From: Bacteroidales bacterium
Lineage (GTDB): Bacteria > Bacteroidota > Bacteroidia > Bacteroidales > UBA1556
DNA: 55,300 nt
NCBI GenBank assembly: GCA_015493685.1
Contig: WGCS01000060.1
Span: 1-55,300 of the forward strand
Direction: 5' to 3'
Of this stretch, positions 12,866-17,910 are shown in pieces (the stretch's first letter is position 1; each line of letters starts with the position of its first letter). The position numbers were made by a program, and so were the translations under genes. The notes beneath the pieces were generated by a model that had not been told where the DNA came from, made no database searches, and saw only the letters and a list, made by a program, of their open reading frames with translations.

Positions 12866-15064
12866 TTACTTCCTTCTATATCTATACTCATTACCATCAA
12901 TAATTAATTTCCAATATGTATTATCAGAAGAAGCGCAGCTAAATTCCGCTTCAACCTTATGCACTACTTTATGCCAAATTACTTCTGTATATTTCGCTTT
13001 AAGATGAATTTCGCTTTCGTCAAGAAATTGTTTTCTACTTAAATATTGCATCGAGAATTTAGGACGTATAAAAATATAGAATGGGGCAACAAAATCTTGT
13101 ATAACTTTAGCAAAGCGAGTCTTAGACAAGGTAATTGGAATATCATCAGAAACTACTATATCTTTGTAGTAGCCGAATATTAATCGATATGAAGTCAGGA
13201 AGAACAGATATAAAGGATCTTCTTTTGAACCAACATAAGAAGTAAAAATAAGTTCTTGCTCATTTAATTTAAAATAAGCATAGCTGTTAGTTTCCTTACT
13301 ATAAAGGTAGCTTTGATTATATAAATCTACACCAACTGTCCAATGTATGTTTGTGGCCATTGATTTATTATCGAGGTCCGAATCTACCAGCTCCCAATTG
13401 ATTTCCATCCCCGGAATAAAGCGAAATGCTTTCCTTAAGCTAGTATCCGTTTTAATATTGCTTAGTTGCTCTCCTTGATTTGGAATTCCGTTGGCGACGA
13501 AGGTAAATTTATCTCTTTTGTTAATCACATAAGGGCCAATGGTATATCTCATGGTTTTAGAGCCTACAAAAGGCGTTGCCTGCAACTGAAAGTGCAAATG
13601 TGGCACCGGTGACCGCCCTGAATTTCCCACAGAGGCAACTATTTCACCCTTACGCACATGCTGGCCCTTATAAACTTTAAAGCTTCCCTTTTTAATGTGA
13701 CTAACTTGACTATACAAATATTGAGCATGCTTTATTACAATAGTATTACCCCAATTATGCACCATATCAATTTCACCAATAATATTATCGTCATATAAAT
13801 CAACAATCTCCACTATTTCTCCATCAGCAGGAGCTACAATGGCTTTGTTGTAACAATAATAATCCTCGGGTTCATTTCCTTCATTATCATATTCCAACCC
13901 ATTCTCTTCAATTACAAAATCCCATGCATATTGCCAATCTTCCTTATGGGTATATTCCCCATTATGTCCTTGATTAATAGACCATTCACCATAGAAAGGC
14001 AGCGAAATTGGAATCTGTGCACTATCACCAAAACGACGATAAAAATTCAAATTAGTATATAAATTCTTCTCCGGTGAAAAATGCTGATAAATAACCAGCT
14101 CAGGCTTTCTAAAAAAATGTTCCCTGTATTTCAATACCAGCAAGAAACTAATTACTACTATATTAAATGGAAGAGAAAAAGTCGATAGCTGAAACTGCGA
14201 CAGCACCTCTGACGAACCCGATACCAGTAGCGAGAGAACCGGAATTAACAAAACAATTACAACAAAAGAATAGATGGAAGGAATAATAAAATATCCTCCA
14301 ATAGCAATGGCTGTTAAGATAAAGTTAAAGCCAATATATCCATAATTTAAATCTCCCAAATTGGCACCAATAATTTGGTAATACCAATAGGCCGAATAGA
14401 AACCCAGCAAACTAAGCAGAAAAGAAATTCTGGAGTTTAGCAGCAATACAATGGCAATAATAATTCCGGCATAAACATTATATTGGAAGAATATTGCTCC
14501 AAGTGAAATAAAATATAGATTCAACGATGCCGGTATTCTCAAACTCAAGAAAGAAAAATGAGATTGTAATAAATCATTTCCTCCCAATAGTACAATATCG
14601 TTGTACACATACACCCCTTGCTCGCTAACTTCCAAGGCTCCATAATGCCGTGCTGCCAAACTCACCGTCCAGATACCAAATAAAAAGGGAAGACTCAAAA
14701 AAGGCAATCCATATTTACTTAATATTGCTTCCAACACAACCGTAACAAACAAGGTAAGAACAGCTGAAAATACCACCAACAGCATCAATTGCCAATTAAG
14801 CTGATAGTATATTCCCAGCCCCAAACCAACAAGCAAACTATTGAAACCATAGATTCCATTAATAATCTTAGTTCTATTCAGCCCCAACAGATACGCTGTA
14901 ATATGTGTTGCGCCAATGGCCACAATACCACTAAGTCCGGCGGTAAAATTAAAGAAAGAAACTAGCAATAAAGCTAAGCCCAATAGCTTACCATCAGAAA
15001 AGAATATCTGAGAATAGCTATGGACAACGCTAAGACCTATGGATTTGATACTGGCTTTTGTCAT
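12866..15064 (-). CDS. Urea-transporter-like membrane domain fused to an M23 zinc peptidase domain and an unknown C-terminal domain
   Basis: Two UT-like repeats (SYSQIFF/GIYGFN/LSLPF and LGAIFFQ/GYIGFN/FSLPFN). M23 motifs H..(W.YAW)D, APADG, WGNTIVIKH, GNSGRS..PHLHFQ. ATG 15064 preferred over TTG 15070. Confidence 0.85.
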   Translation of the reverse strand: MTKASIKSIGLSVVHSYSQIFFSDGKLLGLALLLVSFFNFTAGLSGIVAIGATHITAYLLGLNRTKIINGIYGFNSLLVGLGLGIYYQLNWQLMLLVVFSAVLTLFVTVVLEAILSKYGLPFLSLPFLFGIWTVSLAARHYGALEVSEQGVYVYNDIVLLGGNDLLQSHFSFLSLRIPASLNLYFISLGAIFFQYNVYAGIIIAIVLLLNSRISFLLSLLGFYSAYWYYQIIGANLGDLNYGYIGFNFILTAIAIGGYFIIPSIYSFVVIVLLIPVLSLLVSGSSEVLSQFQLSTFSLPFNIVVISFLLVLKYREHFFRKPELVIYQHFSPEKNLYTNLNFYRRFGDSAQIPISLPFYGEWSINQGHNGEYTHKEDWQYAWDFVIEENGLEYDNEGNEPEDYYCYNKAIVAPADGEIVEIVDLYDDNIIGEIDMVHNWGNTIVIKHAQYLYSQVSHIKKGSFKVYKGQHVRKGEIVASVGNSGRSPVPHLHFQLQATPFVGSKTMRYTIGPYVINKRDKFTFVANGIPNQGEQLSNIKTDTSLRKAFRFIPGMEINWELVDSDLDNKSMATNIHWTVGVDLYNQSYLYSKETNSYAYFKLNEQELIFTSYVGSKEDPLYLFFLTSYRLIFGYYKDIVVSDDIPITLSKTRFAKVIQDFVAPFYIFIRPKFSMQYLSRKQFLDESEIHLKAKYTEVIWHKVVHKVEAEFSCASSDNTYWKLIIDGNEYRYRRK

Positions 15065-15075
15065 TAACAATGATT

Positions 15076-16434
15076 TTACAATTCGAAGCTACTTAAATGT
15101 TTTGGTACTTTTTCCAAATTGCTAATGGTACTCATTTGCTCCTGTTCTCTAATAATCTCAACATCACCACTTTCTGTGATCATAAGCACATTAGGTCTAA
15201 GGGTAATAAACTGCATCCACTGAGTCATATTATAGGCTCCAACACGATGTATCACCACATGGTCACCGGTATTTAACAGAGGCAAACTAATATTCTCTCT
15301 TATCACATCAATATTCATACACAAAGGACCATAAAGCACAGTATCTTCCACATGATGCGAAAAACTCTGAGCAGGAGTTATTTTATGTTCATACCAGAAA
15401 CTGGTAAATAATAAATTAACTCCAATATCGAGGATAGTAGTTCTTTTACCAATGCTATTTCGCTTATTGGCAATCACTGAGCCCAACAAATAGGCCGAAT
15501 CATCAATAAGTGCACGGCCGGTCTCCAATATTAACGTTGGCAAATGGTCGGGATGAATATTACTATTCAATAATGACGAAGTAATTGCCTCTGCATATTC
15601 ATCAAAACTTGGATTAGTATCTTCTGCCGGCAGATAAGCTCCCTTGAGGGTGTTCTTTGAGGCAAAACCTCCTCCCAAGTCAATATATTTTATATAATAA
15701 TCATATTTCTGTTTTATACCTACAGCCAAGTCAGCCAATTTCTTGGCGGCAATACCATAAGGCGCTGCTGTCATCATATAAGTGCCAATATGAGCATGCA
15801 ATCCAATAAGATCCATTTTCTTCGATATCATAATCTTATTCAGCACATCCCATGCCTGTCCATTTTCATAATTAAAGCCAAAGCGATCCCAGATTGGATA
15901 AATACCCGTATCCATATTAACGCGAATTGCAACCTGAGGACGAAGCGACAATTCTTCGGCAAGATCAAGAATCATATAGTATTCGTCCAAATGATCAATA
16001 TGAATAAGTGATTTGTTCTCTATCGCCTTTATTAAGTCTAGTCTGGTTTTATCGGGTCCATTAAAAATAATATTTCTCCCGTCAACACCATTCCCCAATG
16101 CTTTATCGTATTCAAAACCAGAAACCACTTCTGCCCACGATCCTAATTGATGAAAAGTATTGCATACCGCACTTAAGTAATTTGTTTTATAACTCCAGGC
16201 AAATTGCACTTTCGGATAGCGTGTATTAAAAGCACGTTGAGCATTATGGTATGTCTTACGAATTACTGATTCTGAAATTACATATACCGGTGAACCATAT
16301 TTATCAATAATATCTTTTACTGCAACACCCTCGATATGAGTCATGGGTTTAAACTCTGTTCTCATGCCAAATTTATTGGGCATTGAGTTTTCTAGTCTCT
16401 TTATTATAGGACGTTCATATTTTAGTTTTGTCAT
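15076..16434 (-). CDS. Fold-type III PLP-dependent decarboxylase (diaminopimelate/ornithine decarboxylase-like), substrate unknown
   Basis: YGSPVYV, WSYKTNY (PLP Lys), NGPDK, HAHIGT, DLGGGF, ETGR, GPLCMNID, GAY. Confidence 0.85.
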   Translation of the reverse strand: MTKLKYERPIIKRLENSMPNKFGMRTEFKPMTHIEGVAVKDIIDKYGSPVYVISESVIRKTYHNAQRAFNTRYPKVQFAWSYKTNYLSAVCNTFHQLGSWAEVVSGFEYDKALGNGVDGRNIIFNGPDKTRLDLIKAIENKSLIHIDHLDEYYMILDLAEELSLRPQVAIRVNMDTGIYPIWDRFGFNYENGQAWDVLNKIMISKKMDLIGLHAHIGTYMMTAAPYGIAAKKLADLAVGIKQKYDYYIKYIDLGGGFASKNTLKGAYLPAEDTNPSFDEYAEAITSSLLNSNIHPDHLPTLILETGRALIDDSAYLLGSVIANKRNSIGKRTTILDIGVNLLFTSFWYEHKITPAQSFSHHVEDTVLYGPLCMNIDVIRENISLPLLNTGDHVVIHRVGAYNMTQWMQFITLRPNVLMITESGDVEIIREQEQMSTISNLEKVPKHLSSFEL

Positions 16435-16463: not shown

Positions 16464-17507
16464 TTACAATTCTCCCAAAGAAGATATTTTCTCAAAGTCT
16501 TCAATATTTACAATCATATCATAGGAATACCTAACAAACATTTTTCCCACATCATAACTATTGTACTTTTCTACCTTATTGCCCATTGCCAAGTTAACCA
16601 ATGCTTCGGGAATATTTTGGCCAACACCAACGGCGAGATAAATCCACGCGGGCATACGAGGATTAATTTCGAGCAAATGGTAAGCGCCATCTTGCGACTT
16701 CATCAACTCCAACTCAAAGCCTCCTCTCCATTTTGTTTTACTTACAAAATTATCGGTCAACTGAAGCATCTCTTTATTATCAATGGAAATTCCACCCCAT
16801 GCTTTTCCTTTATCGGTAATATATTGTTTTCGCATAGGCACCGCAGCAATGGTATTTCCTTCTCCATCACCCAAACCGGTGATATTATATTCGTCACCGC
16901 GAATAAATTCTTGCACTACAATTGGCAAGCCCCACTTGGCACTTATTTTATTAAAAAATGTTTTAGCCTGCTCAATATTATAAGCAATATGCGCATCATA
17001 GAATTTCCCTTTTATAAGTAGAGGAAATAATAAATCGGTACTTAACTGATACAGTTCGGAGGAATCATATATCGCCTCTGAGCGAGGTACATTAATACTA
17101 TATTTCTCTCCAAAGTCAGGTAAATTTACTTTATGACGTTCTTCAAATTGCTGAATAGTAGGCAGGAAAGTATGAATATTCATTGCCAGAAGCTCTTTTT
17201 CCAATTTCATAAAAGAGTATAACTCAGCATCAAAATTTGGAATAATCACATTCAGATTCTCTTGTGCATTAATGTATTCGAGTCTTGCTTTTAACACTTC
17301 CGTCCCTGCAGAAGGATAAGGAATATGGTACACTTTATCAAAAAGATCATGCATATATATCCCCGGTTCCAAGGACTCATAACTCAATCCAATTAAACGG
17401 ACATTAAAAGATTTTGCCTCGCGTAAACCCCTGGCTACTGCTACTCCAGGACCCGGATTATCAATAGCATTAAGTCCACTTAATGCTATGGTGTAGGTTG
17501 GTTTCAT
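16464..17507 (-). CDS. ATP-grasp ligase (carbamoyl-phosphate-synthase-like fold)
   Basis: FPLLIKG, VVQEFIRGDEY, FELELMK, LLEINPR. Confidence 0.85.
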   Translation of the reverse strand: MKPTYTIALSGLNAIDNPGPGVAVARGLREAKSFNVRLIGLSYESLEPGIYMHDLFDKVYHIPYPSAGTEVLKARLEYINAQENLNVIIPNFDAELYSFMKLEKELLAMNIHTFLPTIQQFEERHKVNLPDFGEKYSINVPRSEAIYDSSELYQLSTDLLFPLLIKGKFYDAHIAYNIEQAKTFFNKISAKWGLPIVVQEFIRGDEYNITGLGDGEGNTIAAVPMRKQYITDKGKAWGGISIDNKEMLQLTDNFVSKTKWRGGFELELMKSQDGAYHLLEINPRMPAWIYLAVGVGQNIPEALVNLAMGNKVEKYNSYDVGKMFVRYSYDMIVNIEDFEKISSLGEL

Positions 17508-17538: not shown

Positions 17539-17778
17539 CTATTTTAATAACTGATATTGTTGAAGCATTTCCTTAAAATCCTGAAAATCTTTGCTAAAAG
17601 TATTTCTATCGGTATCGTAATCTGCTAAAAACAGATTTTGAATTTCATCATCACTCTTTTCTTCTTTTATCATTTTAAGAAGTTTTCTACCTGATTCATT
17701 TAAACTAAATGACTCACCAGAACTGGGATTAAATACAAATCCGTTGTCGCTAATGGCTAAATTTTCGTTGATTTTCAT
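17539..17778 (-). CDS. Stand-alone PqqD-family / RiPP recognition element (RRE) protein
   Basis: 79 aa. Three strands then LNESG..LL, helix, Y.TD, D...F...L...LL is the PqqD winged-helix pattern. Confidence 0.85.
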   Translation of the reverse strand: MKINENLAISDNGFVFNPSSGESFSLNESGRKLLKMIKEEKSDDEIQNLFLADYDTDRNTFSKDFQDFKEMLQQYQLLK

Positions 17779-17910
17779 AAACTATTCTTTAAATTATTTG
17801 TTCTAATTATTCTCTTGCTTTTAGCTCCACTACCATCAGTACTAAAAAGAAATACATTCTTCAGAGGTGTCAATGTTCTCTTTTAAAAGAACATTTTTTA
17901 ATGGGAGTAT

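What the first reader, a model, noticed from the sequence alone, without database searches (positions are those of the whole stretch)
16363..16434. Lasso-leader-like YxxP motif at the N-terminus of the decarboxylase: a built-in RRE docking peptide or fused precursor
Seen: the enzyme starts MTKLKYERPIIKRLENSMPNKFG before the normal core begins (about HIEGVAVKDIIDKYGSPVY). Established: stand-alone lasso B1 RREs bind a YxxPxL motif near the leader N-terminus, usually preceded by basic residues; KYERPII fits with I for L. Inference: with no obvious free precursor here, the RRE may bind this tail to assemble an RRE/ATP-grasp/decarboxylase complex, or to direct modification or cleavage of the enzyme itself. 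That would be RiPP recognition logic reused for enzyme scaffolding.
Basis: partly seen in the sequence, partly recalled or inferred. Interest (0 to 1): 0.85.

Follow-up and report, generated by a model that had tools for sequence, protein, structure and literature searches.

The report
Leader-like docking tail on a decarboxylase
A metabolic enzyme carries at its start a short, floppy, strongly conserved peptide that looks like the "address label" of lasso-peptide precursors, and it is encoded beside the kind of small protein that reads such labels, so peptide-recognition machinery may here be used to hold or process an enzyme.

Summary
The 452-aa LysA/FslC-like PLP decarboxylase (15076-16434, minus strand) starts with MTKLKYERPIIKRLENSMPNKFG, ahead of the normal core.

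- **Context:** it is the third gene of a four-gene cassette: PqqD-type RRE, ATP-grasp ligase, decarboxylase, and a urea-transporter/M23-peptidase fusion.
- **Conservation:** the tail is as conserved as the catalytic core, yet AlphaFold2 gives residues 1-25 pLDDT below 50. It is bipartite: [YFW]-x-[RK]-P-x-[ILV], nine residues, then N-K-[FY]-G. The first half was present in 173 of 173 loci. The Pro-to-Lys spacing of 12 equals the Pro(-14)-to-Thr(-2) spacing of lasso leaders.
- **The RRE:** among solved structures its profile is closest to the lasso B1 proteins TbiB1 and TfuB1. It co-occurs with the decarboxylase in 31 of 31 genomes and in 139 of 141 loci.
- **No other ligand found:** there is no conserved free precursor ORF, and nothing else in the genome matches the tail.
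- **Co-fold:** RRE plus tail gave only a weak pass (0.55 against a best control of 0.03).

Docking of the tail on the RRE is the best explanation (about 0.55) but is unproven. Scaffolding, cleavage and use of Lys21 as a carrier cannot yet be separated. I found no description of this cassette in the searched literature. Novelty: new variant of a known kind.

The parts
16363..16434 (-). N-terminal tail of the decarboxylase, residues 1-24 (MTKLKYERPIIKRLENSMPNKFGM): conserved, predicted disordered, leader-like
   Evidence: sequence; conservation; pLDDT below 50 for residues 1-25
16402..16419 (-). Motif 1, Y6-E-R-P9-I-I11 = [YFW]-x-[RK]-P-x-[ILV]; matches the lasso-type RRE recognition sequence YxxPxL
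   Evidence: 173 of 173 loci (Y 135, F 22, W 16 at the first position); literature passages on YxxPxL
16366..16377 (-). Motif 2, N20-K21-F22-G23. K21 is invariant and sits 12 residues after P9, the place of Thr(-2) in the lasso leader register
   Evidence: K21 in 92 of 92; spacing 12 in 160 of 173 by pattern, about 9 more by eye
15076..16434 (-). Fold-type III PLP decarboxylase, LysA/FslC-like, 452 aa
   Evidence: PF02784, PF00278; FslC 241.3 bits, lysA 206.9 bits, both under their cut-offs; PDB 7kh2; model pLDDT 89.6
16464..17507 (-). ATP-grasp ligase, 347 aa
   Evidence: PF15632, PF02655; present in 141 of 141 loci with at least 1600 nt upstream; natural ATP-grasp-decarboxylase fusion P0043
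17539..17778 (-). Stand-alone PqqD-family RRE, 79 aa, closest to lasso B1 proteins
   Evidence: PF05402, 40.3 bits; TbiB1 E 1.1e-12, TfuB1 1.3e-7; the only PF05402 match in the genome
12866..15070 (-). Urea-transporter-like channel fused to an M23 metallopeptidase and a beta-rich C-terminal domain, 734 aa
   Evidence: PF03253 at 15-313, PF01551 at 408-497; catalytic His/Asp invariant in 73 sequences; model pLDDT 91.3; UT and LytM folds

Best explanation
The first ~23 residues of this decarboxylase are a built-in, intrinsically disordered, leader-like peptide.

Its first half ([YFW]-x-[RK]-P-x-[ILV]; here YERPII) is the recognition sequence for the adjacent stand-alone, lasso-B1-like PqqD/RRE. 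I infer that it binds as an added strand, with the aromatic residue, the Pro and the aliphatic residue in the RRE's hydrophobic cleft, as in lasso B1-leader complexes.

The RRE thereby ties the decarboxylase to its partners: the ATP-grasp ligase, and probably the cytoplasmic hydrolase domain of the membrane UT fusion. An amide made by the ATP-grasp enzyme would then be decarboxylated and handed to the channel within one assembly.

The second half (N-K-F-G) stands where a lasso leader carries its peptidase determinant. It is most likely the contact or the site of action for that partner.

Shown: the motif, its conservation, its predicted disorder, the kind of RRE, the co-occurrence, and the lack of another candidate ligand. 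Inferred: binding, the assembly, and the chemistry.
For: 1. **Motif and register.** [YFW]xxPx[ILVMF] is present in 173 of 173 loci, down to distant variants such as WxKPx[IL] and YVRPVI. The Pro-to-Lys distance is 12 in 160 of 173 by pattern. Lasso leaders carry YxxPxL at -17 to -12 and Thr at -2 (passages of PMC10368454). The YxxP motif and the Leu sit in the RRE cleft (passages of PMC6784204).
2. **Kind of RRE.** The profile of 84 cassette PqqD proteins finds TbiB1 (E 1.1e-12), TfuB1 (1.3e-7) and a third lasso PqqD chaperone (8.5e-5) ahead of true PqqD (0.02-0.04).
3. **Conserved but disordered.** Tail conservation is 0.76 against 0.77 for the core, while pLDDT is below 50 for residues 1-25 in a model of mean pLDDT 89.6. 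This is the signature of a partner-binding linear motif.
4. **Co-occurrence.** All 31 of 401 sampled Bacteroidota genomes that hold the family decarboxylase also hold this PqqD type (30 at 84 bits or more, one at 54.8). None of the other 370 has a PqqD match above 41.5 bits. PqqD lies on the same strand upstream in 139 of 141 loci with at least 1600 nt of flank.
5. **No other ligand in sight.** No recurrent small same-strand ORF lies near the cassette in the genome-derived loci examined (L001-L080, L083-L087, L091-L100), nor upstream of PqqD in 83 loci. A tail profile against the six-frame genome finds only the decarboxylase (E 3.8e-16; next 0.59). There is a single PF05402 gene in the genome.
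6. **Co-fold of RRE with residues 1-36.** Score 0.55 (runs 0.55, 0.55, 0.56); best of 3 controls 0.03; verdict 'weak support'. The mark was reached by 58 of 80 solved complexes and 2 of 110 mismatched pairs. At 0.60 or under it was reached by only 7 of those 80 and by both mismatches that passed. The runs agree in at least 95% of contacts and the partner's pLDDT is at least 55. My own alignments were used, so these counts hold only roughly.
7. **Family-specific.** LysA paralogues in the same phylum align only from about residue 29-40. Among 150 cluster representatives the motif is in 8 of 8 scoring at least 500 bits, 7 of 14 at 400-500, 9 of 45 at 300-400 and 7 of 69 below 300.
Against: - No binding has been measured.
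- The co-fold pass is in the weak band. Because lasso B1-leader complexes are solved (5v1v, 6jx3), it may reflect likeness learned from them.
- The co-occurrence is with the whole cassette. ATP-grasp is present in 141 of 141 loci and the UT fusion nearly always, so it does not single out the RRE as the tail's partner.
- Two tail-bearing loci lack an adjacent PqqD. L087 has a divergent PqqD-like gene on another contig (54.8 bits). L170 is a 3.4-kb contig with no cassette partner.
- The -2-equivalent residue is Lys, not Thr. No lasso cyclase or B2 protease is in the cassette.
- The tail matched no NCBIfam family, lasso leader families included, at E up to 10.
- I could not obtain the context of the nearest tail-less relatives (P0050, P0055, P0060, P0061), so the discriminating test is open.
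Confidence: 0.55

Rival explanations
1. The tail is both leader and substrate: a fused precursor or built-in carrier. The RRE presents the second motif to the modifying enzymes. In one form, the ATP-grasp ligase acylates the invariant Lys21, the decarboxylase acts in cis on the tethered amino acid, and the M23 or Sir2 domain releases the product to the channel. In the other form, the M23 domain cuts at K-F|G and removes the leader, which would activate or release the enzyme.
For: - K21 is invariant (92 of 92) at the leader's -2 register, followed by G23 (90 of 92) at +1.
- The hydrolase fused to the channel is exchangeable. It is M23 in most loci. It is a Sir2-family domain (a family whose members I recall as acyl-lysine deacylases) in 7 of 7 variant loci that were scanned and whose UT gene reaches beyond the channel: L108 (also with GNAT), L109, L110, L111, L113, L114 and L146. 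L116 and L117 are cut after the UT domain.
- The M23 catalytic residues are invariant in 73 sequences.
- Solved relatives of the decarboxylase act on tethered substrates: N-citrylornithine decarboxylase FslC, and L-glutamyl-[BtrI carrier protein] decarboxylase BtrK.
- Variant cassettes carry two ATP-grasp genes.
Against: - There is no direct evidence of modification or cleavage.
- Residues 24-32 after the motif vary between subfamilies, so no conserved core peptide exists.
- In L114 the Lys is replaced by Thr, and in L109 it is shifted by two residues.
- The Sir2, GNAT and M23 domains could equally act on a free small-molecule amide.
- A single-turnover, enzyme-bound carrier is costly unless it is recycled.
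Confidence: 0.2
2. The tail belongs to the decarboxylase's own function or binds another partner: a lid or swapped arm over the dimer's active site, or a docking peptide for the ATP-grasp ligase or the UT fusion. The RRE would then bind something else, such as an unlinked, undetected peptide or a tail of another cassette protein.
For: - The co-occurrence is with the whole cassette, not with the RRE alone.
- In the natural ATP-grasp-decarboxylase fusion P0043 the motif (AYVRPSI) is kept as an internal linker.
- L087 and L170 keep the tail without an adjacent PqqD.
- The ATP-grasp protein ends in a conserved ...GEL and the decarboxylase in ...FEL. These could be other docking peptides.
- The co-fold pass is only weak.
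Against: - The motif and its spacing match what lasso-B1-type RREs read, and the RRE is of that type.
- AlphaFold2 does not pack the tail on the monomer.
- No other peptide resembling a leader was found.
- The co-fold controls scored 0.00-0.03 against 0.55.
Confidence: 0.22
3. The gene is simply the organism's lysine-forming diaminopimelate decarboxylase, with an N-terminal extension of no special meaning.
For: It is the only PF02784 or TIGR01048 match in the 95%-complete genome. In two complete relatives (G003, G004) it is the best lysA match. dapA and dapF are present.
Against: - It scores under the lysA cut-off (206.9 against 297.9) and better with FslC.
- The LysA motif C-E-S is C-M-N here and C-M-Q in FslC (alignments).
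- It is found in only 31 of 401 sampled genomes of the phylum, always with the cassette.
- G003 and G004 have further weak lysA-like matches that may be the real LysA.
- The extension is as conserved as the core.
Confidence: 0.03

Closest known systems
Lasso peptide leader recognition by discrete B1 RREs (TbiA/TbiB1, TfuA/TfuB1)
   Same: A stand-alone PqqD-fold RRE, closest in sequence to TbiB1 and TfuB1. An aromatic-x-x-Pro-x-aliphatic motif near an N-terminus, preceded by basic residues. The same 12-residue spacing from the Pro to a second conserved position, followed by Gly.
   Different: The 'leader' is the N-terminus of a 452-aa enzyme, not of a ~40-aa precursor. Lys stands in place of Thr(-2). 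There is no conserved acidic residue at +7 to +9, and no lasso cyclase or B2 protease in the cassette. The partners are an ATP-grasp ligase and a channel-hydrolase fusion.
Butirosin BtrI/BtrJ/BtrK: small carrier protein, ATP-grasp ligase, PLP decarboxylase
   Same: BtrK is a solved relative of this decarboxylase and acts on carrier-tethered glutamate (molecule name; E 2.8e-23). The gene triad of small protein, ATP-grasp ligase and LysA-like decarboxylase is alike. The role of BtrJ as the ATP-grasp ligase is recalled, not taken from a call.
   Different: The small protein here is a PqqD-fold RRE, not an acyl carrier protein. No phosphopantetheine site or ACP domain was found. Tethering is only a hypothesis here.
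FslC, N-citrylornithine decarboxylase of rhizoferrin biosynthesis (PDB 7kh2)
   Same: It is the best solved and best NCBIfam match (204.9 bits; 241.3 bits). It shares C-M-x in place of the C-E-S of LysA, which suggests an amino-acid substrate whose distal group is amide-linked.
   Different: The score is under the family cut-off (241.3 against 500). The match begins only at residue 35-38, so the tail lies outside it. The cassette holds no gene other than the PqqD, ATP-grasp, decarboxylase and UT-M23 genes.
Engineered leader-enzyme fusions of RiPP enzymes (recalled from the literature, seen in no call)
   Same: A leader peptide covalently attached to a biosynthetic enzyme, so that the recognition element is occupied without a separate precursor.
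   Different: Those fusions are man-made. Here the fusion is natural, ancient and family-wide.
UT-M23 domain fusion noted in a survey of urea transporters (PMC12998343, passages read)
   Same: The same architecture: an M23 peptidase domain C-terminal to a UT domain, in bacteria.
   Different: The survey gives no function and no gene context. It does not mention the link to an RRE, an ATP-grasp ligase or a decarboxylase.

Membership tests
Lasso-type leader peptide | YxxPxL recognition motif near the N-terminus | tested here: met
   YERPII in the window. [YFW]xxPx[ILVMF] in 173 of 173 loci. The definition comes from passages.
Lasso-type leader peptide | A cognate discrete B1-type RRE encoded beside it | tested here: met
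   PF05402 gene at 17539-17778. Profile closest to TbiB1 and TfuB1. 139 of 141 loci.
Lasso-type leader peptide | Thr at -2 and a core with Gly1 and Asp/Glu at 7-9 for the macrolactam | tested here: not met
   The register is kept, but the residue is Lys (92 of 92). Gly is at +1 (90 of 92). The nearest acidic residue is at +5 (Glu in 62 of 92). The segment varies between subfamilies.
Lasso peptide gene cluster | Lasso cyclase (PF00733) and B2 protease (PF13471) in the cluster | tested here: not met
   The cassette genes are PqqD, ATP-grasp, decarboxylase and UT-M23. There is no PF13471 match in the genome. PF00733 matches lie only on other contigs.
PqqD / RiPP recognition element (PF05402) | Score over Pfam's cut-off | tested here: met
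   40.3 bits against 23.4.
PqqD / RiPP recognition element (PF05402) | Binds a peptide ligand | tested here: inconclusive
   Co-fold 0.55 against a best control of 0.03, 'weak support'. No experiment.
Diaminopimelate decarboxylase LysA (TIGR01048) | Score over the curated equivalog cut-off | tested here: not met
   206.9 bits against 297.9.
FslC N-citrylornithine decarboxylase (NF041039) | Score over the curated cut-off | tested here: not met
   241.3 bits against 500.
Fold-type III PLP decarboxylases (Orn/DAP/Arg) | PF02784 barrel plus PF00278 sheet domain | tested here: met
   98.7 and 46.3 bits. Model pLDDT 89.6.
Graspetides (ATP-grasp RiPPs) | A separate precursor peptide gene beside the ATP-grasp ligase | tested here: not met
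   No recurrent small ORF in the genome-derived loci examined and none upstream of PqqD in 83 loci. BLAST at E 1e-4 can miss very short peptides.
Carrier-protein-tethered amino-acid pathways (BtrI/J/K, LysW type) | A dedicated carrier protein (ACP or LysW-like) | tested here: not met
   No ACP or other carrier domain was found in the four cassette proteins. LysW likeness was not tested specifically.

The most novel reading that the evidence does not exclude
The decarboxylase is its own carrier protein. The RRE grips the YERPII motif and presents the invariant Lys21 to the ATP-grasp ligase, which ligates an amino acid to its epsilon-amine. The decarboxylase then works in cis on this tethered substrate. 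The cytoplasmic M23 domain (Sir2 in variant cassettes) hydrolyses the isopeptide bond, and the product leaves through the urea-transporter-like channel. This would be a RiPP-style, leader-guided assembly line for a small molecule, built on an enzyme's own tail.
Probability: 0.15. Interest if true: 0.9.

Novelty: new variant of a known kind. Interest (0 to 1): 0.7.

Why it matters
RRE domains are treated as markers of ribosomal peptide natural-product clusters, and their ligands are expected to be small precursor peptides. The only leader-like sequence in it is the N-terminus of an enzyme.

If the RRE binds that tail, leader recognition has been reused in nature to assemble or process enzymes. 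That would be a natural counterpart of the engineered leader-enzyme fusions (recalled, seen in no call). Genome mining that equates an RRE with a RiPP precursor would then misread such loci.

It also gives a concrete handle on an uncharacterised pathway. The handle consists of one peptide, three point mutants and one lysine. The pathway's hydrolase and channel fusions (UT-M23, UT-Sir2) have been noticed in print but not explained.

Tried and rejected
**Free precursor.** All-against-all BLAST of 6808 small ORFs around the cassette gave only shadow frames of neighbouring genes. By eye, the ORFs upstream of PqqD in 83 loci share nothing. The 32-aa TTG ORF at 17775-17873, which overlaps the PqqD start in the window, has no counterpart elsewhere. 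Rejected.

**Glu7 as an ATP-grasp acceptor.** Glu is conserved in Bacteroidota (91 of 92) but is replaced by V, T, Q, S, I or L in other subfamilies. Rejected.

**Other negative results**
- Riboswitch or RNA element upstream of PqqD: 0 Rfam matches at E up to 1. Promoter and terminator scans were at chance level.
- Tail against NCBIfam at E up to 10: 0 families for 4 tails.
- Fused forms of the RRE: none among 8000 scored longer candidates. This is weak evidence.
- ATP-grasp against the PDB by sequence: only one marginal match (E 0.0092).
- Foldseek of the UT-M23 model returned UT and LytM folds, but nothing for the C-terminal domain among the rows shown.

**Attempt to reach tail-less close relatives.** The metagenome scan with an alignment headed by the tail-less P0055 returned 80 loci. 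All 79 of them that hold enough sequence upstream of the core bear the motif. The one that does not is L121, which is cut at the contig start. P0055's own subfamily was not recovered (best identity 45%).

**Literature.** Searches found nothing on this cassette. PMC12710340 does not mention decarboxylase, urea or M23 (find). Supplements were not requested; Table S3 of PMC12998343 may list UT-M23 proteins.

Full report
**1. The observation**

The minus-strand ORF 15076-16434 encodes a 452-aa protein that begins MTKLKYERPIIKRLENSMPNKFGMRTEFKPMTHIEGVAVKDIIDKYGSPVYV. Pfam places the PLP-binding barrel at 64-309 and the C-terminal sheet at 308-399. The lysA and FslC models, and the best solved relative (FslC, 7kh2), begin to align only at residues 30-38. 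About 30 residues therefore precede the usual core.

**2. The surroundings**

The gene is the third of four tightly packed minus-strand genes:
- a 79-aa PqqD-family protein (17539-17778; PF05402, 40.3 bits);
- a 347-aa ATP-grasp ligase (16464-17507; PF15632);
- the decarboxylase;
- a 734-aa fusion of a urea-transporter-like channel (residues 15-313) with an M23 metallopeptidase (408-497) and an unassigned C-terminal domain (12866-15070).

The 80 loci kept (65-81% identity) carry the same genes in the same order wherever the contig reaches far enough. The order also holds at 46-58% identity, and in 80 metagenome loci fetched with an alignment of more distant representatives.

Over all 175 loci that hold the decarboxylase, 141 have at least 1600 nt upstream. 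All 141 have the ATP-grasp gene, and 139 have the PqqD gene on the same strand. The two exceptions:
- L117, where two ATP-grasp genes fill the available flank.
- L087, where no PqqD is adjacent. By eye, a hot-dog-fold ORF lies on the opposite strand between the ATP-grasp gene and the decarboxylase. A divergent PqqD-like gene sits on another contig (54.8 bits).

L170, a 3.4-kb contig, holds a tail-bearing decarboxylase with none of the partners within 1.1 kb upstream or 0.9 kb downstream.

At genome level, 31 of 401 evenly drawn genomes of the phylum hold the family decarboxylase. All 31 hold this PqqD type (30 at 84 bits or more, one at 54.8). None of the other 370 has a PqqD match above 41.5 bits.

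**3. The tail**

In an alignment of 92 family members, P9 and K21 are invariant. K3, Y6, E7, R8, N20 and G23 are at least 90% conserved. Mean column conservation is 0.76 for residues 4-23, 0.77 for the core and 0.53 for the C-terminal tail.

Across all subfamilies two blocks survive.
- **First block: aromatic-x-basic-Pro-x-aliphatic.** It was found in 173 of 173 loci that have at least 25 in-frame residues upstream of the core. The first position is Y in 135, F in 22 and W in 16. The third position is R in 135 and K in 33.
- **Second block: N-K-[FY]-G.** The Lys lies 12 residues after the Pro in 160 of 173 loci by pattern. By eye it does so in about nine more whose flanking letters differ.

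AlphaFold2 with this alignment gives a confident enzyme (mean pLDDT 89.6), but pLDDT below 50 and no secondary structure for residues 1-25. A segment as conserved as the active site yet not packed on its own protein is what a partner-binding linear motif looks like.

The tail is specific to this family. LysA paralogues of the same phylum (25-31% identity) mostly align from about residue 29-40. Among the best 150 cluster representatives from 1.84 billion proteins, the motif is present in 8 of 8 scoring at least 500 bits, 7 of 14 at 400-500, 9 of 45 at 300-400 and 7 of 69 below 300. Most distant homologues have fewer than 15 residues before the core.

**4. Comparison with lasso leaders**

Passages of two papers state the following:
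- Lasso leaders carry YxxPxL at positions -17 to -12.
- They carry a conserved Thr at -2.
- The YxxP motif and the Leu fit into a hydrophobic cleft of the discrete RRE (TfuB1).

In that register Y6 = -17, P9 = -14, I11 = -12, K21 = -2, F22 = -1 and G23 = +1. The second conserved block therefore stands exactly where a lasso leader carries its peptidase determinant and cleavage site, with Lys in place of Thr.

The profile of the cassette's 84 PqqD proteins finds the lasso B1 proteins first: TbiB1 (E 1.1e-12), TfuB1 (1.3e-7) and a further lasso PqqD chaperone (8.5e-5). Genuine PqqD comes far behind (0.02-0.04).

This is nevertheless not a lasso cluster. The genome has no B2-type protease match, and its Asn-synthase matches lie on other contigs. 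Residues 24-32 vary between subfamilies, so there is no conserved core peptide.

**5. Is there another ligand for the RRE?**

- No small ORF recurs near the cassette or upstream of PqqD.
- A profile of the tail searched against all six frames of the 95%-complete genome finds only the decarboxylase (E 3.8e-16; next best 0.59).
- The genome has a single PF05402 gene.

A very short or unlinked peptide with a different sequence cannot be excluded.

**6. Co-fold**

- Score 0.55 in three runs (0.55, 0.55, 0.56); best of three controls 0.03; verdict 'weak support'.
- The mark was reached by 58 of 80 solved complexes and 2 of 110 mismatched pairs. At 0.60 or under it was reached by only 7 of those 80 and by both mismatches that passed.
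- The runs agree in at least 95% of contacts, and the partner's pLDDT is at least 55.
- My own alignments were used, so the counts hold only roughly.
- Like complexes are solved, so the pass may reflect likeness.

**7. What the cassette may do**

- **The decarboxylase.** It scores best with FslC, which decarboxylates N-citrylornithine. It also matches BtrK, which decarboxylates glutamate held on a carrier protein. It has C-M-N where LysA has C-E-S and FslC has C-M-Q. I infer an amino-acid substrate whose far end is amide-linked, presumably by the ATP-grasp ligase.
- **Natural fusions.** ATP-grasp-decarboxylase (P0043, with the motif AYVRPSI in the linker) and decarboxylase-UT (P0058) tie the steps together.
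- **The channel's fused domain is exchangeable.** The M23 catalytic residues are invariant in 73 sequences. In the variant cassettes the fused domain is instead a Sir2-family domain, found in 7 of 7 loci that were scanned and whose UT gene reaches beyond the channel. The loci in which I counted the ATP-grasp genes have two. One of the seven also has a GNAT domain.
- **Location of the fused domains.** From what I recall, Sir2 and GNAT enzymes use NAD and acyl-CoA. I therefore infer that the fused domains are cytoplasmic.
- **Common chemistry.** Both M23 and Sir2 cleave amide bonds, and I recall Sir2-family enzymes as deacylating acyl-lysine. Together with the invariant Lys21, this keeps open the bolder reading that the tail is a carrier or substrate, not only a handle.

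**8. Verdict**

- **Best explanation (about 0.55).** The tail is the RRE's ligand. It serves to hold the decarboxylase in an assembly with the ATP-grasp ligase and the membrane channel-hydrolase.
- **Carrier or cleavage reading (about 0.2).** It shares the binding step with the best explanation.
- **The tail serves the enzyme itself or another partner (about 0.22).**
- **Plain LysA (about 0.03).** This is despite the lack of another lysA-like match in the genome.

My literature searches found no description of the cassette. One survey notes the UT-M23 architecture without context. I rate the finding a new variant of a known kind, with interest 0.7.

Noticed in passing
L108:6255-8579; also L109, L110, L111, L113, L114, L146: In a variant of the cassette, the urea-transporter-like channel is fused to a Sir2-family domain (in L108 also to a GNAT acetyltransferase) instead of the M23 peptidase. 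L108, L110, L111 and L114 show two ATP-grasp genes.
   Followed up: partly
window 15076-16434; genome G000; G003, G004: The cassette decarboxylase is the only PF02784 and TIGR01048 match in the 95%-complete genome, and it is under the lysA cut-off. Two complete relatives also lack a lysA match over the cut-off, although dapA and dapF are present. Where lysine comes from in these organisms is unclear.
   Followed up: partly
P0043 (871 aa) and P0058 (781 aa): Natural fusions: ATP-grasp-decarboxylase with the tail motif (AYVRPSI) as an internal linker, and decarboxylase-UT. P0058 could be a read-through artefact.
   Followed up: partly
L011:7364-8308, L015, L019, L022, L068; L032:9286-10443, L055, L065, L071: Some loci have an extra gene between the decarboxylase and the UT fusion. 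It is an IF-2B-family protein (PF01008; Pfam checked for L011 only) or a class I/II aminotransferase (PF00155; checked for L032 only).
   Followed up: partly
window 16464-16484 and 15076-15100 (C-termini): The ATP-grasp protein ends in a conserved ...IS-x-x-GEL, at the very C-terminus in most loci. The decarboxylase ends in ...VPEHLKKFEL. These might be further docking peptides.
   Followed up: no
window 12866-13540 (residues ~510-734 of the UT-M23 protein): A confidently modelled beta-rich C-terminal domain with no Pfam match and no Foldseek match among the rows shown. It is missing from the 521-aa form in L087.
   Followed up: partly
L170:1-1001: A tail-bearing decarboxylase stands alone on a 3.4-kb contig. 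By eye, the genes beside it look like a DUF692-type protein and a DUF2063-type protein. These labels are recalled and were not tested.
   Followed up: no
P0053, P0054, P0056, P0066, P0124, P0138: A more distant decarboxylase subfamily has a Y-x-P-P-x-[LMVI] tail (for example KYEPPLL, PYTPPRL) without the NKFG block. Its gene context is unknown.
   Followed up: no
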